Source of the DNA: Candidatus Cybelea sp.
Lineage (GTDB): Bacteria > Vulcanimicrobiota > Vulcanimicrobiia > Vulcanimicrobiales > Vulcanimicrobiaceae
Assembly: GCA_049800655.1 (NCBI GenBank)
Contig: JBARKF010000310.1
Location: 2,835 to 66,834 of the forward strand
Direction of reading: 5' to 3'
Length of the DNA stretch: 64,000 nucleotides
Shown here: one piece after another, positions 27,801 through 43,138 of the stretch
How the letters are laid out: each line of letters starts with the position of its first letter
Position numbering within the stretch: position 1 is the stretch's first letter
Program-made: the position numbers and the translations under genes
Notes under the pieces: model-generated
The model's database searches: none
What the model saw: only the letters and a program-made list of their open reading frames with translations
What the model was told of the DNA's origin: nothing

Positions 27801-29207
27801 TTGCAAAAATCAGCATTATCGCTGGCGATCTGCGTCGCTGCATCGGGCAGTACGGCCTGCAGCGGCGGCGGATCCTCTCCCTCGATTTCCTCAATTCCGT
27901 CGGCCGGCAGGTCGTTCTCGCGACTTCAGTCCGGCCCTTCACCGATAACACACATCGTTCTCATCGTTCAGGAGAATCGCACCTTCAACAACCTCTTTGC
28001 GACGTTCCCCGGCGCGACCGGCGCGACCAGAGGGAAGAAGAAGGCCAGTGGCAGAGTGGAATCCGTCACGCTCAAAGAGACGAACCTCGGAGGGCAGCGC
28101 AACTTCAATCACAACTACAAGAGCTTCCTCACCGGCTACGACAACGGCAAGCTTGACGCGTTTAATCTGATCAAGTTCGCGAACAACAACAAGAACGAAG
28201 GAAACGGGCCGTACGAATACGTCAACCCAAGTCAGATCCAGCCATACTGGCAGATAGCCGAACAGTACGGTCTCGCGAACGCGATGTTCGCGACGCAAGG
28301 CAGCGACAGCTTCCCCGCGCATCAAGATCTGATTCGTGGCGGCACGGCGATCGATTCGAGCGATAGTTTAATCGACAATCCGCCGTACAGCGGTGCGTGG
28401 GGTTGCGATTCCGCGCCCGGCACGAAGACGTCGCTGATCAACACCTATCTGCAAGTCCGGCGTGGCGTAGGGCCGTTTCCCTGTACTCAGGATTTTCCAG
28501 GATCGGGCGCAAACTACCGGACGCTCCGCGATCTGATGGACAACGCCTCGGTCTCGTGGAAATACTACACGCCGGAGATTGGCGCGAGCGGAGCAATCTG
28601 GGACGCGTTCGACGTGATTTCGCCGGTTCGCTTCGGTTCGGAGTGGGGCACCAACGTCAACTGGCCCGAGACGAATATCTTCAACGATATCTCAAACGGT
28701 CAGCTCGCGAATATGTCTTGGGTAATACCGGACGGCGTAAACTCGGATCACCCCAACCGGAGCGGGGACACCGGTCCTTCGTGGGTCGCGAGCATCGTCA
28801 ACGCAATCGGCGAGAGCCAGTATTGGGACTCGACCGCCATCATCGTCGTTTGGGACGACTGGGGCGGCTTCTACGATCCGGTCCCGCCCCCGCTGCCGCG
28901 TGACAATCAGGGCGGGCCGGGCCTCCGAATTCCGATGCTCGTCGTCTCGCCTTACGCGCGGATCGGCAGCGGCAGCCAAGGCGGCTATATCTCCAACACC
29001 GTCTATGCGTTCGGAAGCATCATCCGGTTCGTCGAAGATACGTTCAATCTCGGACGGCTCGGAACGACCGACGGCACCTCCAACAGCATGGACGACATGT
29101 TCAACTTCTACCAATCCCCGCGTCAGTACCAATCGATCGGTTCGAAGTATTCGCGTTCGTACTTCATGCACCAGAAGCCCTCGGGAATTCCAGTCGACAC
29201 CGAATGA
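27801..29207 (+). CDS. Phosphoesterase-family lipoprotein (phospholipase C / AcpA acid phosphatase superfamily)
   Basis: TTG start and lipobox SGSTAC. ITHIVLIVQENRTFNNLFATFPGA is the hallmark N-terminal block of the Phosphoesterase family. IIVVWDDWGGFYDPVPPP lies in the C-terminal half. Confidence 0.85.
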   Translation: MQKSALSLAICVAASGSTACSGGGSSPSISSIPSAGRSFSRLQSGPSPITHIVLIVQENRTFNNLFATFPGATGATRGKKKASGRVESVTLKETNLGGQRNFNHNYKSFLTGYDNGKLDAFNLIKFANNNKNEGNGPYEYVNPSQIQPYWQIAEQYGLANAMFATQGSDSFPAHQDLIRGGTAIDSSDSLIDNPPYSGAWGCDSAPGTKTSLINTYLQVRRGVGPFPCTQDFPGSGANYRTLRDLMDNASVSWKYYTPEIGASGAIWDAFDVISPVRFGSEWGTNVNWPETNIFNDISNGQLANMSWVIPDGVNSDHPNRSGDTGPSWVASIVNAIGESQYWDSTAIIVVWDDWGGFYDPVPPPLPRDNQGGPGLRIPMLVVSPYARIGSGSQGGYISNTVYAFGSIIRFVEDTFNLGRLGTTDGTSNSMDDMFNFYQSPRQYQSIGSKYSRSYFMHQKPSGIPVDTE

Positions 29208-30052
29208 TGCGGTCTCACGCCGCCGGCGCGATCGCCTGGCTATCGCTGCTGCTTTCAGCCTGCGGACCGGGTTCAACAACGCCGGCGGCGCCGAATGCGT
29301 TTGCGATCGGAAGTTCGCCCCTTGGCCAAGGCGCGCGCTGGATTCCGGCGCCAAACGAGTCGTATCAGATCCAGTACGACGGCCGGCTGGACTTGAAGGT
29401 TCCCGCCGATATCTACGATCTCGACATGTTCGACACATCGCCGAAGATCGTCGCGAAGCTGCACGTAATGAAGCGGCGCGTCATGTGCTACGTCGACGTC
29501 GGCACTTGGGAGAACTGGCGCCCCGACGCCAAGGAGTTTCCAAAGAGCGTATTAGGTCACCCCGACGGTCACTGGAGAGGTGAGCGCTGGCTTGACATTC
29601 GCCAGACGGCGATTCTCGAGCCGATCATGGCCCGCCGGCTCGACCTCTGCAAGAAGAAGGGCTTCGATGGCGTCGATCCCGACAATCTTGACGGGTATCA
29701 GAACCGGACCGGATTCCCGCTCACCTATCACGAGCAGCTCACGTACGATACATGGGTCGCCAAAGCCGCGCACGACCGCGGGCTAACGGCCGACCAAAAA
29801 GGCGACAACAGCCAAGTCAAAGACCTCGTGAAAGTCTTCGATTTCGCCGTCGTCGAGCAGTGCTTCGCACAGGGCTGGTGCAACCAGTTCGCGGTCTACA
29901 CCAAGACCAACCGGCTCGTCGTCGACGTCGAGTACTTTCACGACCGCACGCGTTTTCTCGATAAGACCTGCCCCGACGCCGGCAAATACCATGAAACCGC
30001 GATTCTCAAAAGACTCGAACTGACGGCTTGGATCGTAACCTGCCCCAGTTGA
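29204..30052 (+). CDS. GH114-like endo-alpha-1,4-polygalactosaminidase lipoprotein
   Basis: Lipobox LLLSAC. YDLDMFD, VMCYVDVGTWENWRPDAKEFP, GERWLDIR, KKGFDGVDPDNLDGYQNRTGFPLT and FAVVEQCF match Glyco_hydro_114. ATGA overlap with the upstream gene. Confidence 0.85.
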   Translation: MMRSHAAGAIAWLSLLLSACGPGSTTPAAPNAFAIGSSPLGQGARWIPAPNESYQIQYDGRLDLKVPADIYDLDMFDTSPKIVAKLHVMKRRVMCYVDVGTWENWRPDAKEFPKSVLGHPDGHWRGERWLDIRQTAILEPIMARRLDLCKKKGFDGVDPDNLDGYQNRTGFPLTYHEQLTYDTWVAKAAHDRGLTADQKGDNSQVKDLVKVFDFAVVEQCFAQGWCNQFAVYTKTNRLVVDVEYFHDRTRFLDKTCPDAGKYHETAILKRLELTAWIVTCPS

Positions 30053-30134
30053 CGCTGAAGAAGCTCTAACTCACAGCACGAATCGTCACCGGTAATGCTC
30101 GCCAGCCTCTCTTGGCAGCAACAGGAGCTATTCG

Positions 30135-31558
30135 ATGCACAAACCATGGGCGTTTTTTTTGCTCGTCGTCGTAACAGGGAGCCTGACCGCGTGCGGTGCG
30201 TCATCATCCTCGGCGGTAACGCCGATGGCGCGGATTCGTCGTCCGCCGCTCGCGCGACGGGACTCCGGCAGCACGCCGATTCATCATATCGTCGTGGTCA
30301 TTCAAGAGAACCGTACCTTCAATGATTTTTTCGCAACGTTCCCGGGCGCAACCGGTGCGACTTCTGGTTACGAGCTCATCAACGGCGAGAGGCAGCTGAT
30401 CAATCTCAAGGAGGTCTCGCTCGTCGGGCAGCCCGCCTTGAATCATTCTTACAGTGGTTTCACCGCAGCCTGCAACTATAGCTACTCGTCGGGTTGCCAG
30501 ATGGACGGCTTCAATCTGATCAAGTATCCAAAGAATCCGCGGCTGGAGAAGACGGCGCCGTACGAATACGTCAATCCTGCCGATATCGCGCCGTATTGGA
30601 GTATGGCCGAGCAGTATGGACTCGCTAATGCGATGTTCACGACCCAAGGGAGCAACAGCTTCACGGGACACCAGGATCTCATTCGCGGCGCAACTTTTAT
30701 CGATCCCAACGACAGTATGATCGACAACCCGCGTGTCGCCGGCGCCTGGGGATGCGACTCCCAACCCAACACCAGGACGTCGCTGATAACGACGCAACTC
30801 AAATACGAAGAGGATGCCGGGCCGTTCCCGTGCACTCAGGATTTTCCGGAATATGGTGGATATCCTTACAAAACGCTGCGCGACTTGCTCGATGCGAAAC
30901 ATGTCTCCTGGAAATACTACACGCCTCAAATTCCAGACTCGGGCGCGATTTGGAACGCCTTCGACGTTATCTCGGCGGTGCGTTACGGCCCTGAATGGGG
31001 CACGAACGTGACTTGGCCGGAGACCAACGTCTTCAAAGACATCTCCGGCGGGACACTTCCGGCGGTCTCGTGGGTGATCCCCGATGGACGTAACTCGGAC
31101 CATCCCAACGGCGGGCAGGACGACGGGCCGTCCTGGGTCGCCAGCGTCGTCAACGCGATCGGAGAAAGCTCTATTGGAACTCGACGGCGATCATTGTCGT
31201 CTGGGACGACTGGGGCGGCTTTTACGATCCCGTTCCGCCCCCGTTTCCCCGCGACAATCAAGGCGGCCCGGGCTTCCGCGTTCCGATGCTGGCAATCTCT
31301 CCCTACACGAAGATCGGCTCCGGGAGTCAAGGTGGCTATATTTCGAACACCATTTACTACTTCGGCAGCATCCTACGATTCAGCGAAGACACGTTCGACC
31401 TCGGACGTCTCGGGACGACCGACGGCACGTCGAACAGCCTCGGCGACATGTTCGACTTCGACCAAGCCCCGCGGCAGTTCCATCAAATCCGCTCGACGTT
31501 CTCTCGCTCGTTCTTTCTCCATCAAAAGCCCTCCGGGATCCCCGTCGACACGGACTAG
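30135..31558 (+). pseudogene. Second phosphoesterase-family lipoprotein paralog, interrupted by a 1-nt frameshift near 31170
   Basis: Frame 0 (30135-31169) is collinear with the 27801 paralog up to AIGES. The rest (YWNSTAIIVVWDDWGGFYDPVPPPFPRDNQGGPGFRVPMLAISPYTKIGSGSQ...GIPVDTD*) continues in the -1 frame to TAG 31556-31558. AGC-TC-TAT-TGG here corresponds to AGC-CAG-TAT-TGG in the paralog. Confidence 0.8.
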
Positions 31559-31570
31559 GCATGGTTCACT

Positions 31571-31742
31571 GCCAAGGCCAGGTGGGAGGCCCGCGCTGCT
31601 GAGCTTTTGTCGCATTCGTGCCAAGGCCAGGTGGGAGGCCCGCGCTGCTGAGCTTTTGTCGCATTCGTGCCAAGGCCAGGTGGGAGGCCTGCGTTGCTGA
31701 GCTTTTGTCGCATTCGTGCCAAGGCCAGGTAGGAAGCCCGCG
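31571..31742. repeat. Tandem direct repeat, 49-bp unit x 3.5
   Basis: The unit GCCAAGGCCAGGTGGGAGGCCCGCGCTGCTGAGCTTTTGTCGCATTCGT starts at 31571, 31620, 31669 (2 substitutions) and 31718 (truncated and diverged after about 25 bp). There are no unique spacers. Confidence 0.95.
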
Positions 31743-31752
31743 TCTTCCGCAC

Positions 31753-31784
31753 GAATGCGACAAAAGATTTATTATGTCGCATTC
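31753..31784. promoter_or_regulatory. 13-6-13 near-palindrome: candidate tyrosine-recombinase core site or operator overlapping the recombinase start codon
   Basis: GAATGCGACAAAA (31753-65), GATTTA (31766-71), TTATGTCGCATTC (31772-84). The arms are 12/13 reverse-complementary, and ATG 31774-76 lies in the right arm. The same half-site, TTTTGTCGCATTC, occurs once per 49-bp repeat upstream. Confidence 0.55.
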
Positions 31785-32727
31785 AGGGACCGTGAAGAAG
31801 CCTGCGCAGGGCAGCGAAGCTGCCAAGCCGGATCCGCTCGTCCGTGACCTGCGGGGCTACCTGCTGACCGAGCGCAAACGCAGCCCCTTAACGGTCGCCG
31901 CGTACGAGCGAGATCTGATGGAGTTCACCGCGTTTTTGCGGGAGACGGAAGCCTCGGCAGCGCTGCAGGCGGTGAAGCCGACGCAGATTCGGCAATATAT
32001 CGCGCACCTGTTCGACGCGCGTGGCTGCGATAGCCGAACCGTCTGCCGGAAGCTGTCGTCGATCCGCGCGCTCTATCGCTTTCTCAAGATCACGGGGATT
32101 CTCGAGAACGATCCCGCCGCGGCGATTCCCGGCCCCTCGGTCGCGAAAAAGCGCCCGGCGCCGCTCAAAGTCGACGAGGTCATGAAACTGCTGCGGACCT
32201 CGCTTGCCGGCCGGACGGATGCCGCCCGCCGGCGAGACAACGCCATCATGGAGCTTTTCTACGCCAGTGGGATGCGCCGAGCCGAGCTCGCCGGCGTACG
32301 GCTTGCCGACGTCGATCTCGCCGAGCGCACGATTCGCGTAACGGGAAAAGGCAACAAGGAGCGTTTGGTCGTGATCAACCGAGCGGCTGCAGATGCCATC
32401 GAAGCCTACCTGCGCGTCCGGCCGCGCAGCGCCGATCCCGCGCTCTTCCTGGGCCGCGGCGGCAAGGCGCTTACGCCGAAACACGTTTGGCGAATCTTCC
32501 GCGCGATCTATCAAATCAGCGGAGTTCAGAAGCACGCAAGCCCGCACACGCTGCGTCACTCGTTCGCTACGCATCTCGTGGAGAACGGCGTGGACCTCGA
32601 GACCGTCCGCGAACTGCTCGGGCACGAGAGTCTGGCGACGACCGGCGTCTATTTGCAGTTAGCGATGGGACATAAGCGGCGCGCGTACGACGAAGCGCAT
32701 CCGCGTGACCGCATGCCCGATCGCTAG
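31774..32727 (+). CDS. Tyrosine recombinase, XerC/XerD family
   Basis: A SAM-like N-domain (SPLTVAAYERDLMEFTAFL, IRALYRFL) precedes the catalytic region: ELFYASGMRRAEL, GKGNKERLV, HTLRHSFATHLVENGVDLETVRELLGHESLATTGVYLQL. The start was trimmed to ATG 31774, because the tracked extension reads through the tandem repeat. Confidence 0.88.
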   Translation: MSHSGTVKKPAQGSEAAKPDPLVRDLRGYLLTERKRSPLTVAAYERDLMEFTAFLRETEASAALQAVKPTQIRQYIAHLFDARGCDSRTVCRKLSSIRALYRFLKITGILENDPAAAIPGPSVAKKRPAPLKVDEVMKLLRTSLAGRTDAARRRDNAIMELFYASGMRRAELAGVRLADVDLAERTIRVTGKGNKERLVVINRAAADAIEAYLRVRPRSADPALFLGRGGKALTPKHVWRIFRAIYQISGVQKHASPHTLRHSFATHLVENGVDLETVRELLGHESLATTGVYLQLAMGHKRRAYDEAHPRDRMPDR

Positions 32728-32965: not shown

Positions 32966-33065
32966 GTTCGGCTCCTCTAGTGACGGGAGGGCGCTCGAGG
33001 CGCCCCAGCGGCAGCAGCATATCGCCCTCGCCGTCCAGCCGGCGTCCAGGAAATCGTCTCGCGTG

Positions 33066-34004
33066 CTAAACCCGCATCTTCTTCTGCCGGGACGCGTCGG
33101 CTTCGATCATGAAGCGCGCGAGCGCGGCGCCGATCGAGGCTCCGCCCGCGGCCTCGTAATATGGGTAGCCCGGCGACGGATTCGCTTCGAAGCAGAACCA
33201 CTCGCCCTCGTCGCTTCGCATCAGATCGATGCCGGCGAAATGCAGCCCGAGCATTCTCGTAAGCCGCCGGCAGCGCTGCGCCACGTCGGCCGGCAGCTCG
33301 GCCGGCGTTATTGTCGAGCGGCCGTAGCGATAATCGATCTGATCCGAGGCGATTTGAGCGGCGAAGACTCGATCGCCGAGCACGTGCGCTCGATAGTTCG
33401 TGCCCTTGACGGCCCGTTGAAAGAGCGTCGGGCACCACTGGACGTCGTCGATAAGGCCGCATTGCGCTTCGCCCAGCCGCCGCACGATGCTGCGGACGCC
33501 GCTCATCGACTTATAGACCGAGTCGGGATGCTGCACCAGAAAGGCACGCGCGGCTTCGGCGTCGTTGCAGAGGAGCGTCTCGGGGACCGCAAAGCCCGCC
33601 TGATGGATAACGCTCATTTGGTACGGTTTCGAGTTATTGGTGGCCGAAGGAGCGGAACGGTTGATCACGACCGCGTCGGAAGCGTCGAGCCACGCCGTCA
33701 GCTGCGCTTCGAACGCGGCCGCACGGATCACGGGGGGACTGTCGTGCGGCAAACCCCGCAGCTCGTCGTGCTGATAAAAGCTCAGGCCCCTCACGTACGC
33801 CACCGTGACGCCGGTGATGTCGATCGTCGCGCCTTCGACCGTCACCGTGCATCGTTCGCCGTTGGCGCCGTCAATGACGGAGTCGATCTCGCAGCGAGCG
33901 ATCTTCCGGTGATCGAAAAAAACGAACTCGGCGCCGGCCTGCGTGAGCGCCGCGCAAGCGATCGCCATCGGCGCGTCGTCCAGCGTCCCCCACAGAAAAA
34001 TCAA
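33066..34004 (-). CDS. ATP-grasp domain ligase (RimK / RiPP-maturase-like)
   Basis: 312 aa with a pre-ATP-grasp N-domain, VYKSMSG, NYRAHVLGDRVFAA, and the Mg-ATP site HFAGIDLMRSDEGEWFCFEANPSPGY (E-x-N). TTG start overlaps the upstream stop (TTGA). Confidence 0.75.
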   Translation of the reverse strand: MIFLWGTLDDAPMAIACAALTQAGAEFVFFDHRKIARCEIDSVIDGANGERCTVTVEGATIDITGVTVAYVRGLSFYQHDELRGLPHDSPPVIRAAAFEAQLTAWLDASDAVVINRSAPSATNNSKPYQMSVIHQAGFAVPETLLCNDAEAARAFLVQHPDSVYKSMSGVRSIVRRLGEAQCGLIDDVQWCPTLFQRAVKGTNYRAHVLGDRVFAAQIASDQIDYRYGRSTITPAELPADVAQRCRRLTRMLGLHFAGIDLMRSDEGEWFCFEANPSPGYPYYEAAGGASIGAALARFMIEADASRQKKMRV

Positions 34005-34705
34005 TGGCGCGGCACTTCCATAAAACGCGCGATCGCGGCGCGGTTCGCCGGTACGCTAACGTCGGGGACGAATGAAAGGTCGGCTAAAGCATATTCGTCT
34101 TCGCGCGTCGCGGCGAAGCGCAGACGAACGTATGGCATCTCGAAGGCGCGCGCAAGTGCCTGCGCGTATTCGCAAACCCGGCCGGGCAGGTCATCCTCGA
34201 CGATCGCATCCCCGATGACGGTCGCTCGTAGCCTCGGTCGTTCCGCCGCCTCGTCCGTCACGGGTAAGCCGTTTCGGATGCGCCCCGCCCAAACGGGAAT
34301 CCCCCAGCCGCGTGCAGCCTTCATCCATTCGATGCGATGCAAGCCAAGACCCGAGAGACTCTTCGGCGTCGGCGGGTTGAGTTTTTTGCAGCGCAACACC
34401 GTAAGCAAGTAGATGAAGAAGGCCCGCACTTCCGCGCAGACGTACTCGCGGTCGGCCGGTTCGACTTCGTAAAACTCTTGCGGCAGAAAGTACGCGACCG
34501 TTGTGACGACGCCGGTAATCTCGGTCGCACGAATCCGGACGCCGCCAATCGTCAGCTGCGCCGACGACAGGTCGCCGACGGAGACGGCGGCCTTGAAATT
34601 GCGGTGGAGCGTCGAAGCGGTGACTAATGAGGCGACGCCGGGCGAGAACGTCTCGATGAGATCGATCGCCGACTCATTAGCCACATTGCTTACGACAAGG
34701 ATCAA
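34001..34705 (-). CDS. Truncated/degenerate ATP-grasp paralog (N-terminal and central part only)
   Basis: 234 aa. Its layout parallels the N-terminal two thirds of the 33066 protein (ITGVVTTVAYFL vs ITGVTVAYVRGL; EVRAFFIYLL vs FEAQLTAWL). No E-x-N or nucleotide-binding C-terminal half was seen. TTG start 34705 overlaps the upstream stop. Confidence 0.55.
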   Translation of the reverse strand: MILVVSNVANESAIDLIETFSPGVASLVTASTLHRNFKAAVSVGDLSSAQLTIGGVRIRATEITGVVTTVAYFLPQEFYEVEPADREYVCAEVRAFFIYLLTVLRCKKLNPPTPKSLSGLGLHRIEWMKAARGWGIPVWAGRIRNGLPVTDEAAERPRLRATVIGDAIVEDDLPGRVCEYAQALARAFEMPYVRLRFAATREDEYALADLSFVPDVSVPANRAAIARFMEVPRH

Positions 34706-35646
34706 CTCTCCTCGGTCTGGTCGCCGCGCTCGCCGACCGGCGGCCGGTCCTCGCTCCGAATAAAGGCGCGCCCCATTGTCTGCAGGCCGACCTGCAACTG
34801 GCTGATGCGCGCATTGAGAGCCGCGATCTCGGCGACGATGAGCTCGGGATCGCCGATATCGCCCCAGCCCTGGGACTCCACCGACTCTTTGGGCCCTTTG
34901 AAGATCTCCGAGACCCACTTGCTCGTGAAGACGTCGCTGATGATTGGCTTATCGAAGTGTTCCTTCGTCTTGACGGGGTCTTTGTAAAGCGCCAACGCAT
35001 AGACGGTTTCGCCTTGGCCTGGCGTTAAGTTAGCGCCGCTGATGAGACTTGGCAGCGGCGATGGATTCGTGAGATCGGTCCATTGGTCGAAAAGCGCCGT
35101 CATGGGCAACGACATATAGGGACCGATGTTCGGATGATCGGCCGCGATCGTGTAGCCGCTCGAAGCGGTATCGACCCAGCCTTCGACGTTCGCTTCGGTG
35201 GTAAGCGTGCCGCCTGGATCCGGGCTGACGGTCACGAAATCGTTGTCGACTAACGCGCCAGTGCTCTCGTTGAAAGCGTCGATGACGGCGCCGCTGTCAC
35301 CGGGTCCGGGGGTGCCCCCGACTGGAACGTAAAGGTAAACGACGAGCACCGGACTCGTGCCGACGGTGCCCGGCGGCGGATATCCTCCGGGCTGATTCGT
35401 AAAGCGCGGCCCTTCGACCAAGCCGGAAACGTTGGTAAGAGCCCACTGCAAGTCGAGCGACCCGACGTCATACGTCAGGAACGGCAGTAACGGCTGGAAG
35501 GACGTGCCGGGCGCGAGCGTCTGGGGTGGCGACGGGTTGAGTCCTGGGATCGGGGTAAAGCCGCCGTAGGAAGTCGTCGCGCGAGGCTGGCGCGTGTGGG
35601 CGCCGGAGGCGCCGAAATAAACGTATTGGGTCGTGAGTAATGGCAT
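34702..35646 (-). CDS. Unknown protein (314 aa), Pro/Gly/Thr-rich with a C-terminal amphipathic helix and acidic tail
   Basis: ATG lies 8 nt after AAGGA. There is no signal peptide or TM segment. The helix PELIVAEIAALNARISQLQVGLQ is followed by the tail SEDRPPVGERGDQTEES. No family is recognised. Confidence 0.6.
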   Translation of the reverse strand: MPLLTTQYVYFGASGAHTRQPRATTSYGGFTPIPGLNPSPPQTLAPGTSFQPLLPFLTYDVGSLDLQWALTNVSGLVEGPRFTNQPGGYPPPGTVGTSPVLVVYLYVPVGGTPGPGDSGAVIDAFNESTGALVDNDFVTVSPDPGGTLTTEANVEGWVDTASSGYTIAADHPNIGPYMSLPMTALFDQWTDLTNPSPLPSLISGANLTPGQGETVYALALYKDPVKTKEHFDKPIISDVFTSKWVSEIFKGPKESVESQGWGDIGDPELIVAEIAALNARISQLQVGLQTMGRAFIRSEDRPPVGERGDQTEES

Positions 35647-35706
35647 ATGCTGATCCTTTCAGTTGCCATTGGGACCAAGGCGGTAGGCGTTCCGCAGCTT
35701 GCGTCG

Positions 35707-42075: not shown

Positions 42076-42097
42076 ACGCTAGGCCCTCCAAGCGATG

Positions 42098-42169
42098 CTG
42101 GGGTGGCTGGATTCGAACCAACGCATGGCGGAGTCAAAGTCCGCTGCCTTACCGCTTGGCTACACCCCA
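42098..42169 (-). tRNA. tRNA-Gln (anticodon TTG)
   Basis: The minus-strand sequence is TGGGGTGTAGCCAAGCGGTAAGGCAGCGGACTTTGACTCCGCCATGCGTTGGTTCGAATCCAGCCACCCCAG. The acceptor stem is TGGGGTG/CACCCCA, the anticodon loop is CTTTGAC, and the T-loop is GGTTCGAATCC. CCA is not encoded. Confidence 0.9.
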
Positions 42170-42874: not shown

Positions 42875-42895
42875 GAAACCGCTCCTCTTTCACGA

Positions 42896-43008
42896 CACTT
42901 GCGGGGTTAGTTGACGGGTTCGGACGGGAAAGATTCGCCCTAGGGCCGACCGGCCCACTCACCCCTACCGGGACATCCCCCGCTCGAGGCTCTCGCCCCG
43001 ACTCAGTG
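42896..43008 (-). ncRNA. Cyclic-di-AMP riboswitch (ydaO-yuaA class) in the NlpC/P60 5' leader
   Basis: The minus strand reads CACTGAGTCGGGGCGAGAGCCTCGAGCGGGGGATGTCCCGGTAGGGGTGAGTGGGCCGGTCGGCCCTAGGGCGAATCTTTCCCGTCCGAACCCGTCAACTAACCCCGCAAGTG. It contains the conserved GAGCGGGGGA, GGGGTGA and CCGAACCCGTCA-CTAACC-CG-AAG blocks, with P1 as CACT/AGTG. Confidence 0.8.
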
Positions 43009-43138
43009 ACCTTGTACAGGCATGGGAACTGTCGACGTCGCTTTTATTTGCAAATCATCGAAGATCCCAGATCTCAGGGGCGCTTCGTCGTAACGTTGCG
43101 GCGCCCTTCCGCGTTCCACTTCACCTCCGATTATTGCG

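What the first reader, a model, noticed from the sequence alone, without database searches (positions are those of the whole stretch)
31571..31790. 49-bp tandem repeat array ending in a 13-6-13 palindromic site that overlaps the start codon of a Xer-family tyrosine recombinase
A 49-bp unit (GCCAAGGCCAGGTGGGAGGCCCGCGCTGCTGAGCTTTTGTCGCATTCGT) begins 13 bp after the phosphoesterase pseudogene stop. It repeats head-to-tail at 31571, 31620 and 31669, with a truncated fourth copy at 31718. Each unit carries the motif TTTTGTCGCATTC. Directly after the array lies GAATGCGACAAAA-GATTTA-TTATGTCGCATTC (31753-31784). This is two copies of the same motif in inverted orientation (12/13 complementary) around a 6-bp AT-rich centre, and the recombinase ATG (31774) sits inside the right arm. 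Two inverted 11-13-bp arms around a 6-8-bp crossover region is the architecture of tyrosine-recombinase core sites (dif, lox and FRT style). Extra directly repeated half-sites beside the core resemble accessory or arm-type sites, as in attI and attP. So this may be a recombination locus, an autoregulatory operator, or both. An RNA-level reading is also possible. The 17-nt segment 31750-31766 is perfectly complementary to each upstream CTTTTGTCGCATTCGTG (31604-20, 31653-69, 31702-18). Ten of its nucleotides are also complementary to 31775-84 across the start codon. That gives mutually exclusive hairpins which could gate translation. I do not recognise this arrangement as a described element.
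Basis: partly seen in the sequence, partly recalled or inferred. Interest (0 to 1): 0.75.

Follow-up and report, generated by a model that had tools for sequence, protein, structure and literature searches.

The report
dif-like Xer site with repeated hairpin arm
The palindrome at the start of this recombinase gene looks like the recombinase's own DNA target, of the kind used to separate joined chromosome copies, and is conserved across a family of uncultured soil bacteria; the 49-bp repeats are a strain-variable amplification of a segment that base-pairs with one half of that target.

Summary
The organism is Candidatus Cybelea (Eremiobacterota). The finding has three layers.

(1) The 13-6-13 palindrome is not peculiar to this strain. 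It sits at the 5' end of the xer gene or operon in every one of about 150 related loci, down to 54% Xer identity. It is AT-rich and is the best dif-like 28-mer in the window. Gene orientation in the window converges on it. It is most likely the Xer target of a linked dif-xer module, as in XerS/difSL and XerH/difH.

(2) The upstream repeated motif is an inverted copy of the left arm plus its flanks. It occurs in about a third of lineages. It forms a 14-30 bp hairpin with the left arm, with compensatory changes and G·U but almost no A·C pairs, so pairing is selected on the sense strand. This favours an RNA hairpin over accessory recombinase sites.

(3) The 49-bp array is a copy-number-variable amplification of that arm: 1, 2 or 3 copies in close relatives. 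Independent arrays with periods of 23-90 bp occur in other lineages.

Not shown: recombination, a single Xer per genome, terminus position, the transcription start, or why several copies are kept.

The parts
31570..31742 (+). 49-bp tandem array, 3.5 copies. Each full unit is the 18-nt hairpin arm 'A' plus 31 nt. Copy number varies between strains.
   Evidence: TRF period 49, 95% matches, score 318. L001, a strain with 99% Xer identity, has exactly two units (98 bp) fewer. Orthologues at 93-94% identity have two A copies with period 51-52.
31604..31621 (+). Arm A1 (distal): CTTTTGTCGCATTCGTGC, reverse complement of 31749-31766
   Evidence: Inverted repeat I1, 18 nt, 100% complementary
31653..31670 (+). 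Arm A2
   Evidence: Inverted repeat I2, 18 nt, 100%
31702..31719 (+). Arm A3 (proximal). Forms the long hairpin H1 with 31749-31766.
   Evidence: Inverted repeat I3, 18 nt, 100%, 29 nt between arms. RNA fold of 31695-31800 gives -43.6 kcal/mol, z -4.29. The helix covaries in 42 distinct loci.
31720..31748 (+). Loop of H1. Contains GGAAG (31733-37) and CTTCC (31744-48), which extend the helix.
   Evidence: Fold. AGGA...CTTCT motifs lie upstream of the left arm in most relatives.
31749..31765 (+). Left arm B of the dif-like site (GAATGCGACAAAA, 31753-65) with its 4-nt flank GCAC, which also pairs with A
   Evidence: Conserved as GAATGCGAYRAAA in all loci. Pairs with A.
31766..31771 (+). 6-bp AT-rich central region GATTTA (CTGTTA in other clades)
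   Evidence: In relatives its first 3-5 nt are included in the A:B helix and covary with A's 5' flank: ATC with GAT, CAG with CTG. In this window only G31766 pairs with A.
31772..31784 (+). Right arm C (TTATGTCGCATTC), containing the xer start codon ATG at 31774-31776
   Evidence: 12/13 complementary to B. The ATG in this arm opens a full-length xer ORF in 111 of 134 distinct loci. The arm is also conserved where it is not the xer start.
31755..31782 (+). 28-bp dif-like core in 11-6-11 register
   Evidence: Top-scoring 28-mer of 127,946 under a matrix built from 29 proteobacterial dif sites: 15.8 bits, next unrelated 3.2. The 32-bp site is 34% G+C in a window of 59-65% G+C (counted).
31774..32727 (+). 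xer gene, 317 aa, XerC/XerD-like tyrosine recombinase
   Evidence: NCBIfam XerC 290 bits (cut-off 335), XerD 264 (cut-off 330). Pfam Phage_integrase plus SAM_1. Nearest annotated recombinase chain is XerD 1A0P, E 8.9e-39. Orthologues at 58-100% identity lie on Mb-scale Eremiobacterota contigs.
30135..31558 (+). Upstream phosphoesterase-family gene, frameshifted. Context only, not part of the element.
   Evidence: One-base deletion near 31171 relative to the intact gene in L001, 99.5% identity

Best explanation
1. The 13-6-13 palindrome (31753-31784) is the DNA target of the Xer recombinase encoded immediately downstream. It is a dif-type site fused to the 5' end of its own gene. Together they form a self-contained dif-xer module that is conserved across Baltobacteraceae (Eremiobacterota). 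Because the site overlaps the start codon, and in one clade a promoter-like element, Xer bound there would also be expected to limit its own expression.

2. The repeated motif upstream ('A') is an inverted copy of the left arm plus a few flanking bases. On the sense strand it pairs with the left arm to form a long hairpin (H1). In the xer leader RNA, H1 competes with the palindrome's own hairpin (H2), which would otherwise bury the AUG. A therefore acts as a decoy for the right arm and keeps the start region open.

3. The 49-bp array is a recent, strain-variable tandem amplification of the unit carrying A.

Shown here: conservation and dif-likeness of the site, linkage to xer, covariation and strand bias of the A:B helix, and copy-number variation.

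Inferred: Xer binding and recombination, chromosome-dimer resolution, that the leader is transcribed through A, and the effect on translation.
For: Site:
- It is present at the 5' end of xer in all 93 genome and contig loci that have an intact 5' end.
- An independent metagenome pattern scan found 62 contigs with one site each. A Xer homologue lies downstream in 57. Four of the other five have 315 nt or less of downstream sequence. The fifth, L102, has 941 nt downstream and no Xer homologue, but its arms match the site poorly.
- No second copy was found in the window or in about 1.5 Mb of related loci.
- The arms stay conserved in clades where the ATG in the right arm is not the xer start and the site lies 65-900 nt upstream. 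So the right arm is not conserved merely as coding sequence.
- A dif matrix from PMC2731167 Table 1 ranks it first in the window, in the 11-6-11 register.
- It is low in G+C and palindromic, which are features listed for dif in PMC2731167.
- Gene orientation converges exactly on xer. Left of it, 17 genes are on + and 7 on -. Right of it, 8 are on + and 19 on -. The best pivot is at 32.3-32.9 kb, and 5 of 2000 label permutations do as well.
- Gene content immediately flanking the module is variable.
- Precedent: xerS lies immediately adjacent to difSL as a single module, and difH is linked to xerH in most epsilon-proteobacteria (PMC5357621; PMC2731167).
- Outer B:C positions vary without compensation, so the palindrome itself behaves as a protein/DNA site rather than a selected RNA helix.
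- In one clade of 16 distinct loci, TTGACT/TTGACA lies exactly 17 nt upstream of GATAAA in the left arm. A promoter can therefore overlap the site.

Hairpin:
- 31 of 85 loci have an upstream 14-mer pairing at 13 or more of 14 positions with the left arm. The maximum in 1,840 shuffles was 12.
- Helices are 14-30 bp.
- On 42 distinct loci, 12 of 25 pairs show compensatory double changes. The covariation score is 0.258 against 0.075 or less for slid controls, and 0 of 500 shuffles reach it. This includes columns outside the 13-mer that was used to find A.
- Non-Watson-Crick cells are G·U 62 against A·C 1.
- L121 has the hairpin in a divergent intergenic region, so it belongs to xer and not to an upstream gene's 3' end.
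- Folding energies: H1 -43.6 kcal/mol, H2 -17.5 kcal/mol with the AUG inside the stem.
- The modelled unpaired probability around the AUG rises from 0.18 to 0.54-0.61 when A is in the transcript.

Array:
- Close relatives carry 1, 2 or 3 A copies.
- Among 123 distinct loci, 22 have 1 copy, 14 have 2, 7 have 3 and 1 has 4. Periods range from 23 to 90 bp.
Against: - GC skew does not change sign at the site, either raw or at third codon positions corrected for gene strand. The classical terminus signature is therefore absent in this 64-kb window.
- I could not read whole genomes. So uniqueness of the site, absence of a canonical dif elsewhere, and the number of Xer genes per genome are untested.
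- The site overlaps coding sequence, whereas dif is usually intergenic.
- Its matrix score (15.8) is below the lowest training dif (20.0).
- 79 of 123 distinct loci lack A.
- Predicted H2 stability does not differ between loci with and without A (-11.3 against -11.2 kcal/mol, p = 0.9). A simple 'A is needed to undo H2' prediction was therefore not met.
- No transcription start is known. If xer mRNA is leaderless or starts inside the site, as the promoter-like clade suggests, then A is not in the mRNA.
- A stable stem ending 3-8 nt before the AUG could itself hinder initiation.
- Distal A copies diverge less than their surroundings (8.6% against 34%, with ascertainment bias). One hairpin does not explain that.
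Confidence: 0.5

Rival explanations
1. The direct repeats are accessory binding sites for extra Xer subunits next to the core. This is the arrangement in Tn4430, where tandem DR1-DR2 motifs bound by extra TnpI subunits beside the IR1-IR2 core impose resolution selectivity and the order of strand exchange. The array would build a topologically selective synapse or a repression complex.
For: - Each copy carries an exact arm sequence in the orientation of the right arm.
- Half of the A-bearing loci have two or more copies, in independent arrays.
- Between copies, the 13-mer diverges less than the rest of the unit (8.6% against 34%).
- Documented precedent: core inverted motifs plus adjacent tandem accessory motifs bound by the same tyrosine recombinase (PMC2847244).
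Against: - The copies are absent from 79 of 123 distinct loci, although the core is invariant.
- A follows the left arm's lineage-specific substitutions and not the right arm's sequence.
- Complementarity extends into the flank outside the arm (GTGC/GCAC, GAGCGG/CCGCTC, GCGTGG/CCACGC) and into the central region (ATC/GAT, CAG/CTG), with compensatory changes.
- Mismatches are G·U and almost never A·C. A duplex-DNA protein site does not predict that.
- Spacing between copies varies from 23 to 90 bp.
Confidence: 0.15
2. The palindrome is functional, but the A copies and the 49-bp array have no function. An inverted duplication of the left arm arises and is kept complementary by quasipalindrome template switching, is amplified by replication slippage, and then decays. 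On this view it is a lineage-specific minisatellite.
For: - The phylogenetic distribution is patchy and many loci show visibly decaying copies, for example L016, L043, L055 and L021.
- Unit lengths and boundaries differ between lineages, and copy number varies between near-identical strains.
- There is no link between A presence and H2 stability, nor with upstream gene orientation under a crude gene call.
Against: - The hairpin occurs in lineages whose Xer is only 61-63% identical to this one (L089, L124). Within single clades that share one loop, the full path G-C to G·U to A-U is seen.
- The G·U to A·C asymmetry of 62:1 is not expected from strand-symmetric DNA processes.
- Long perfect hairpins are normally deletion-prone, yet stems of 20-30 bp persist.
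Confidence: 0.2
3. The palindrome is only an autoregulatory operator for Xer, or for another dimeric regulator. The chromosome's real dif lies elsewhere, at the terminus, and may be served by this Xer together with a second paralogue.
For: - The site overlaps the start codon, and in one clade it overlaps a promoter-like TTGACT-17-GATAAA element.
- GC skew does not switch sign here.
- The recombinase is an ordinary-length XerC/D-like protein, not an atypical XerS- or XerH-type enzyme.
Against: - No copy of this site type was found away from xer in 62 metagenome contigs, 93 other loci or viral contigs. A dif with these arms elsewhere in these genomes should have been hit.
- Gene orientation converges on the site.
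- The central region is conserved within clades but falls into discrete variants between clades (GATTTA, CTGTTA, GAATTA, GAGTTA). This is the pattern PMC2731167 reports for dif.
- The near-perfect two-fold symmetry fits a single-recombinase system.
Confidence: 0.2
4. Hairpin H1 followed by AUUUAUUAU is an intrinsic terminator or insulator. It stops read-through from the upstream gene into the dif site and xer.
For: - A strong stem (-43.6 kcal/mol) is followed by 5 T in the next 8 nt.
- In this window and its close relatives, a co-directional gene ends 13-50 nt upstream.
Against: - L121 carries the hairpin with a divergently transcribed upstream gene.
- The base of the stem is A/U-rich, the stem is far longer than typical terminators, and the consensus scan reports no terminator here.
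- No room is left for a xer promoter between the stem and the AUG, unless the promoter lies inside the hairpin.
- Loci without A often have separate GC-rich hairpins further upstream.
Confidence: 0.08

Closest known systems
XerS/difSL (streptococci, lactococci) and XerH/difH (Helicobacter, Campylobacter): single-recombinase dif-xer modules
   Same: A palindromic, AT-rich recombination site lies immediately next to the gene of the tyrosine recombinase that would act on it, and the pair is inherited as one unit (PMC5357621, PMC2731167). Here the linkage holds in all of about 150 loci.
   Different: - The recombinase is a normal-length (317 aa) XerC/D-like protein, not the 350-360-aa XerS or XerH.
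- The site has a canonical 6-bp centre and TTATG-type inner arm, like classical dif, rather than the 11-bp centre of difSL.
- The start codon lies inside the right arm.
- A hairpin partner of one arm, often amplified, lies upstream.
- A single Xer per genome and terminus position are not shown here.
Classical XerCD/dif
   Same: 11-6-11 architecture. The inner-arm and centre sequence ...AAAA-GATTTA-TTATGTC... resembles ...ATAA-TGTATA-TTATGT.... Low G+C. It is the best matrix match in the window. Flanking gene content is variable.
   Different: The two arms are almost identical, which suggests one protein rather than XerC plus XerD. The site overlaps a coding start. No GC-skew switch is visible. 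The score is below all training dif sites.
Tn4430 TnpI / IRS (core IR1-IR2 plus tandem accessory motifs DR1-DR2)
   Same: Inverted core motifs with additional directly repeated copies of the same motif alongside (PMC2847244). That the IRS lies next to the recombinase gene is from my own knowledge and was not checked here.
   Different: Here the extra copies are absent in most lineages, vary in number and spacing, and covary with one core arm as a base-paired helix, including non-arm flanks. This is a chromosomal housekeeping context, not a transposon.
Alternative-hairpin translational control in mRNA leaders (sequestor and anti-sequestor helices)
   Same: One segment (B) can pair either with an upstream partner (A) or with a downstream partner containing the AUG (C). 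The upstream pairing is stronger and forms first during transcription.
   Different: The sequestor helix is a by-product of a DNA recombination site. No ligand or sensor is evident. The anti-sequestor is present in only about a third of lineages and is often multi-copy. There is no Rfam family match.
CTX-phi attP(+) and integron attC (Xer- or IntI-family recombinases acting on folded single strands)
   Same: A Xer-type site is associated with a strand-specific hairpin. G·T pairs are also tolerated in DNA hairpins, so a sense-strand DNA fold is not excluded by the covariation.
   Different: The A:B stem reconstitutes only one half-site plus 3-5 nt of the centre, not a full two-arm site. There is no mobile-element context, and no matching site in viral contigs.

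Membership tests
dif (chromosome dimer resolution site) | Two inverted arms of about 11 bp around a 6-8 bp central region | tested here: met
   13-6-13, 12/13 complementary. The 11-6-11 register is the best matrix hit.
dif (chromosome dimer resolution site) | G+C content well below that of the chromosome | tested here: met
   11 of 32 bases (34%) against 59-65% in the window
dif (chromosome dimer resolution site) | Sequence similarity to known dif, especially the XerD-side TTATGT inner arm | tested here: met
   Matrix from 29 proteobacterial dif sites gives 15.8 bits, rank 1 of 127,946, with the next unrelated hit at 3.2. The score is still below the training minimum of 20.0.
dif (chromosome dimer resolution site) | Located at the replication terminus (cumulative GC-skew extremum) | tested here: inconclusive
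   There is no sign change of GC skew in the 64-kb window. However, gene orientation converges exactly at xer. Whole chromosomes could not be read.
dif (chromosome dimer resolution site) | Intergenic, non-coding location | tested here: not met
   The right arm contains the xer ATG and codons 1-4 in 111 of 134 distinct loci. The site is non-coding only in some distant clades.
dif (chromosome dimer resolution site) | One copy per chromosome | tested here: inconclusive
   No second copy was found in the window, in about 1.5 Mb of loci, or away from xer in 62 metagenome contigs. No complete genome was scanned.
dif (chromosome dimer resolution site) | Bound and recombined by Xer, activated by FtsK | not testable with these tools
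   Needs biochemistry or genetics
Single-recombinase dif-xer module (XerS/difSL, XerH/difH type) | Site genetically linked to (adjacent to) the recombinase gene | tested here: met
   Linked in all loci with an intact 5' end. The distance is 0 nt (ATG inside the site) up to about 900 nt.
Single-recombinase dif-xer module (XerS/difSL, XerH/difH type) | Only one Xer recombinase in the genome | not tested
   No paralogue was found in the window or in flanks of 6-10 kb. Near-identical arms and equal similarity to XerC and XerD are only suggestive.
Single-recombinase dif-xer module (XerS/difSL, XerH/difH type) | Recombinase belongs to the XerS or XerH protein family | tested here: not met
   XerS model 112 bits against a cut-off of 267. 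XerH structure chain E 1.6e-14 against XerD 8.9e-39. It would be a separate lineage.
Accessory-site recombination locus (TnpI/IRS-like, arm-type sites) | Extra recombinase-binding motifs conserved alongside the core wherever the core occurs | tested here: not met
   A is absent in 79 of 123 distinct loci. Number and spacing are variable.
Accessory-site recombination locus (TnpI/IRS-like, arm-type sites) | Motif conservation confined to the protein-contact sequence | tested here: not met
   Complementarity with the left arm extends into flanks and the central region with compensatory changes.
Structured RNA element (cis-regulatory leader hairpin) | Helix supported by compensatory substitutions and strand-specific G·U pairs | tested here: met
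   12 of 25 pairs have double changes. Covariation is 0.258 against 0.075 or less for slid controls, and 0 of 500 shuffles reach it. G·U 62 against A·C 1. Caveat: the core 13 pairs were used to find A, and relatedness was not corrected for.
Structured RNA element (cis-regulatory leader hairpin) | Region is transcribed on the sense strand as part of the xer mRNA | not testable with these tools
   No transcript data. No sigma-70 consensus promoter was found in 31300-32000.
Structured RNA element (cis-regulatory leader hairpin) | Match to a curated RNA family | tested here: not met
   Rfam found nothing at gathering score. The only other hits were generic hairpin (miRNA) models at 27 bits against a gathering score of 92.
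Intrinsic terminator | Compact G+C-rich stem, short loop, U-tract; placed after a co-directional gene | tested here: not met
   The consensus scan found none. The stem base is A/U-rich. L121 has the hairpin with a divergent upstream gene.
Minisatellite / VNTR | Head-to-tail units with copy-number differences between close strains | tested here: met
   3.5 units here against 1.5 units in a strain with 99.5%-identical flanking DNA, a difference of exactly 98 bp.

The most novel reading that the evidence does not exclude
A self-contained dif/Xer module in which the recombination site doubles as the control region of its own recombinase gene. An evolvable, copy-number-variable decoy of one site arm, acting as an RNA or single-strand hairpin, tunes how much Xer is made, or tunes how the site is used. 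This would be a regulatory layer not described for any Xer system, conserved and repeatedly re-amplified across an uncultured phylum.
Probability: 0.2. Interest if true: 0.7.

Novelty: new variant of a known kind. Interest (0 to 1): 0.5.

Why it matters
If the site is the chromosomal dif, Eremiobacterota would join streptococci, epsilon-proteobacteria, Legionellales and archaea as lineages with a one-recombinase dimer-resolution module. In this case the enzyme is an ordinary XerC/D-like protein and the site is classical-looking.

The start codon (and, in one clade, a promoter-like element) lying inside the recombination site is an unusually direct physical link between site occupancy and recombinase supply.

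The covarying hairpin arm gives a concrete, testable case of a DNA recombination site imposing an RNA-structure cost on the gene it overlaps, and of that cost being offset by a compensating element.

Practically, the 32-bp site is a simple marker for locating the xer locus, and possibly the terminus, in Eremiobacterota MAGs. The 49-bp array is a strain-typing VNTR.

Tried and rejected
1. Exact-protein look-up of the window's Xer and of P0001 found nothing on record.
2. I tested whether loci with A have a more stable palindrome hairpin. They do not (p = 0.9).
3. I tested whether A goes with a co-directional upstream gene. A crude GC3-based gene call gave 22:6 against 31:16. It was noisy because of spurious antisense ORFs and was not used.
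4. RNAalifold on -28..+66 of 75 loci predicted only six inner palindrome pairs. It did not support an outer CTTCTTC/GAAGAAG helix, because the upstream motif is not column-aligned. That helix remains a visual impression.
5. IMEX or phage mimicry: there were no site matches in viral contigs. The single 18-mer hit (L095) is at chance level and has no palindrome nearby. No second flanking site was found in loci where a gene sits between the site and xer.
6. A second Xer: none in the window or locus flanks.
7. Promoter search: no sigma-70 consensus near the array. The -35/-10 pair inside the site was found in one clade only.
8. I rejected reading the repeats as full degenerate sites. The 13 nt left of each half-site match the left arm at only 4 of 13 positions (read).
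9. A literature search found nothing on Xer or dif in Eremiobacterota.
Full report
**Observation**

The region reads exactly as described.
- Tandem Repeats Finder gives one array at 31570-31742: period 49, 3.5 copies, 95% matches, score 318. Nothing else in the window has a period above 15.
- The 13-mer TTTTGTCGCATTC occurs exactly at 31605, 31654 and 31703 on the + strand and at 31753-65 on the - strand. It occurs with one mismatch at 31772-84 (+). The rest of the 64 kb holds one 2-mismatch match.
- Each upstream copy is part of an 18-nt perfect inverted repeat with 31749-66. The palindrome 31753-65 / 31772-84 is 12/13 complementary around GATTTA.
- The ATG at 31774 starts a 317-aa protein with Phage_integrase and SAM-like N-terminal domains. 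It scores almost equally for XerC (290 bits, cut-off 335) and XerD (264 bits, cut-off 330). The nearest annotated recombinase chain in the PDB is E. coli XerD.

**Source and relatives**

The identical protein is recorded from a Candidatus Cybelea MAG (Eremiobacterota). Orthologues at 80-100% identity sit on contigs of up to 2.8 Mb. This is therefore a conserved chromosomal gene, not a mobile-element integrase.

I collected three sets of related loci:
- 14 loci by exact-protein look-up;
- 80 species-representative loci from genome contigs, with Xer identity of 58-93%;
- 62 metagenome contigs found purely by a degenerate DNA pattern for the site.

**Layer 1: the palindrome**

*Conservation and linkage.* Every locus with an intact 5' end has the site at the start of xer. 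The consensus is GAATGCGAYRAAA-[GATTTA or CTGTTA, with rare variants]-TTATGTCGCATTC. In the pattern-based metagenome set, each contig has one site. A Xer homologue follows in 57 of 62. Four of the other five contigs have 315 nt or less of downstream sequence. The fifth, L102, has 941 nt downstream and no Xer homologue, but it matches the arms poorly.

*Not just coding sequence.* The ATG in the right arm opens the full xer ORF in 111 of 134 distinct loci. In more distant clades (Xer 54-63% identical), that ATG opens only a 3-27-codon ORF, or a MUG113-domain gene of about 290 aa that precedes xer. There xer starts 65-900 nt downstream, often behind a GGAG-type ribosome-binding site. The right arm is conserved there too, so its conservation is not a side effect of coding for the Xer N-terminus.

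*Similarity to dif.*
- A weight matrix built from 29 proteobacterial dif sites printed in PMC2731167 ranks 31755-31782 first of all 127,946 28-mers in the window.
- The score is 15.8 bits, in the 11-6-11 register. The reverse strand of the same site is second, and the next unrelated sequence scores 3.2.
- The score is below the weakest training site, which scores 20.0.
- The site is 34% G+C in a 59-65% G+C window.

*DNA site, not RNA helix.* The outer positions of the right arm vary (CATCC, CCTCC, CTTTC, TTATTC) with no compensation in the left arm. A consensus RNA fold keeps only six inner pairs. The palindrome as such therefore behaves like a dimeric protein's DNA site.

*No stray copies.* No copy of the site was found away from xer in the window, in the loci or in viral contigs.

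**Is it at the terminus?**

The evidence conflicts.
- GC skew is negative on both sides, with no extremum at the site. It stays negative after separating gene-strand effects at third codon positions.
- Gene orientation, in contrast, converges exactly on xer. There are 17 + and 7 - genes to the left and 8 + and 19 - genes to the right. The best pivot in the window is at 32.3-32.9 kb. Only 5 of 2000 permutations of strand labels do as well; this permutation ignores operon structure.
- The genes immediately flanking the module differ between relatives, while the outer synteny (ApbA ... Ldh) is kept. That is typical of dif neighbourhoods, but it is not proof.

Whole chromosomes could not be read with the tools I had left.

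**Comparison with known systems for layer 1**

The literature describes xerS lying immediately adjacent to difSL 'as a single module' (PMC5357621). It also describes difH as genetically linked to xerH in most epsilon-proteobacteria (PMC2731167). The present module works like those. It fails membership on the protein family: the enzyme is XerC/D-like and of normal length. I could not test the defining 'single Xer per genome'.

**Layer 2: the upstream motif (A)**

*Distribution.* A is not specific to this strain, but it is not universal either. In 31 of 85 distinct loci, an upstream 14-mer pairs at 13 or more of 14 positions with the left arm. The best of 1,840 shuffles reached 12. Across 123 distinct loci with enough upstream sequence, 79 have no A, 22 have one, 14 have two, 7 have three and 1 has four.

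*A follows the left arm.* A tracks the left arm rather than the right arm:
- GACAAAA pairs with TTTTGTC;
- GATAAAA pairs with TTTTATC;
- GATGAAA pairs with TTTCATC;
- CAATG pairs with CATTG;
- GAATACG pairs with CGTATTC.

*Pairing extends beyond the arm.* It continues past the 13-mer on both sides. On the loop side the flanks pair as GTGC/GCAC here, and as GCGC/GCGC, GAGCGG/CCGCTC, GCGTGG/CCACGC and GAGCGGGG/CCCCGCTC elsewhere. On the other side pairing runs 3-5 nt into the central region, ATC/GAT in GATTTA-type sites and CAG/CTG in CTGTTA-type sites. Stems are 14-30 bp.

*Formal count.* On 42 distinct sequences:
- 12 of 25 pairs have changes on both sides;
- there are 95 compensated cells against 34 in shuffles;
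- the covariation score is 0.258 against 0.075 or less when the partner is slid by 1-3 columns;
- 0 of 500 shuffles reach the observed score.

The 13 core pairs were used to find A, so the flank columns are the independent evidence. Relatedness is not corrected for.

*Strand bias.* Non-Watson-Crick cells are G·U 62, A·C 1 and other 7. Within single clades that share one loop, G-C, G·U and A-U states all occur, while the A·C state does not. Pairing is therefore selected on the sense strand. That points to RNA, although a sense-strand DNA fold is not excluded.

*Not a terminator for an upstream gene.* In L121 the upstream phosphoesterase gene is divergent. The consensus scan finds neither a terminator nor a sigma-70 promoter around the array. 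Rfam has no matching family.

**Mechanism proposed for layer 2**

In RNA the left arm (B) can pair with A. That hairpin (H1) has -43.6 kcal/mol, z -4.3. B can instead pair with the right arm C. That hairpin (H2) has -17.5 kcal/mol, z -3.9, and places the AUG inside the stem. A is 12/13 identical to C, so it is a decoy for C.

In partition-function models of 44 A-bearing loci, the mean unpaired probability of positions -2..+8 around the AUG is:
- 0.18 without A;
- 0.54 with the proximal A;
- 0.61 with all copies.

For this window the figures are 0.14 without A, 0.36 with the proximal copy and 0.33 with all three. The 82 A-less loci stay at 0.21-0.22.

In clades where xer has a GGAG ribosome-binding site downstream of the site, a CTTCTC motif just upstream of the left arm is complementary to it. 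This fits the same logic, but it rests on visual reading only.

Weaknesses of this mechanism:
- H2 stability does not differ between loci with and without A.
- No transcription start is known.
- One A-less clade of 16 distinct loci has TTGACT/TTGACA exactly 17 nt upstream of GATAAA in the left arm. That would give a nearly leaderless mRNA. It is found in 0 of 45 A-bearing loci. This is compatible with 'A matters only where B is transcribed', but it is one clade.

**Layer 3: the array**

- A strain whose flanking DNA is 99.5% identical has exactly two units fewer, with one A copy.
- Orthologues at 93-94% identity have two A copies. Their unit bodies have diverged, but the 20-mers GCTTTTGTCGCATTCGTGCC are identical.
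- Independent arrays with periods of 23, 35, 37, 42, 51, 57, 66, 71, 81, 87 and 90 bp occur in other lineages.
- Between adjacent copies the 13-mer differs at 8.6% of positions and the flanks at 34%. This comparison is ungapped, and the copies were chosen by similarity, so it is biased.

That distal copies stay intact is not explained by a single hairpin. It keeps alive the accessory-site model, whose documented precedent is TnpI with its tandem DR1-DR2 motifs beside the IR1-IR2 core (PMC2847244). It also keeps alive a conversion and slippage model without function.

**Verdict**

The 'accessory half-site' reading is weakened but not excluded.

My probability estimates are:
- about 0.8 that the palindrome is a Xer DNA target;
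- about 0.55 that it is the chromosomal dif of a linked module;
- about 0.55 that the A:B hairpin is a selected sense-strand structure;
- about 0.35 that its role is to free the start region;
- about 0.15 that copy number itself is functional.

It is a new variant of a known kind, the dif-xer module, with an undescribed hairpin and VNTR layer.

Noticed in passing
window 42880-43018 (-) and 42097-42169 (-): A c-di-AMP (ydaO-type) riboswitch (72.9 bits, gathering score 38) and a tRNA-Gln(TTG) gene. They are the only Rfam or ARAGORN hits in the window.
   Followed up: no
window about 31171 (within 30135-31558): The second phosphoesterase-family gene is broken by a single-base deletion (CTCC to CTC) relative to the intact 474-aa gene of L001, which is 99.5% identical. 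This could be a real pseudogene or an assembly error.
   Followed up: partly
window 33052-35685: A 2.6-kb insertion relative to L002-L009, about 330 bp downstream of xer. It carries three minus-strand genes. One is an ATP-grasp ribosomal-peptide-maturase-like protein (TIGR04187, 128 bits, below cut-off). The other two ORFs have no family hits. It may be a small RiPP-type cassette.
   Followed up: partly
L155:45-896, L148:329-1201, L149:229-1095; truncated in L106: In distant clades an ORF of about 285-290 aa with a C-terminal MUG113 (GIY-YIG-like) domain lies between the dif-like site and xer. It starts at or just after the ATG in the right arm. No second site precedes xer.
   Followed up: partly
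L053, L057-L060, L062, L063, L065, L066, L097, L103, L112, L114, L115, L135, L156 (about 38-33 nt upstream of the ATG): A conserved TTGACT/TTGACA lies exactly 17 nt upstream of GATAAA inside the left arm. This is a promoter-like pair that would start transcription within a few nt of the ATG. It is found only in loci without the hairpin arm.
   Followed up: partly
most loci; window 31733-31748 and 31794-31800: An AGGA...CTTCT(T)C motif directly upstream of the left arm and a GAAGAAG (Lys-Lys codons 8-9, or a GGAG-type RBS in distant clades) downstream of the right arm are widely conserved and mutually complementary. This may be an anti-SD/SD-like outer helix. It was not confirmed by the consensus fold.
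   Followed up: partly
L121:6426-6584: A 53-residue fragment, 56% identical to the catalytic C-terminus of Xer (residues 258-311), lies 1.2 kb downstream of the intact xer. It looks like a recombinase gene remnant.
   Followed up: no
L095:2090-2170 (IMG/VR contig): The single viral match to the 18-mer lies among three direct GTCGCAT-containing repeats upstream of an ORF, with no palindrome nearby. The hit count is at chance level, but the local repeat looks operator-like.
   Followed up: no
L015, L043, L059 (record titles): Contigs carrying the Cybelea-type xer locus (82-93% identity) are deposited in MAGs labelled Acidiferrales, Babeliales and Acidoferrum. This is probably binning contamination.
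   Followed up: no
window 27801-31558: Two paralogous phosphoesterase-family genes flank a GH114 glycoside hydrolase gene just upstream of xer. In relatives this block is present, partly present or replaced by other genes. In L121 the phosphoesterase gene is inverted.
   Followed up: no
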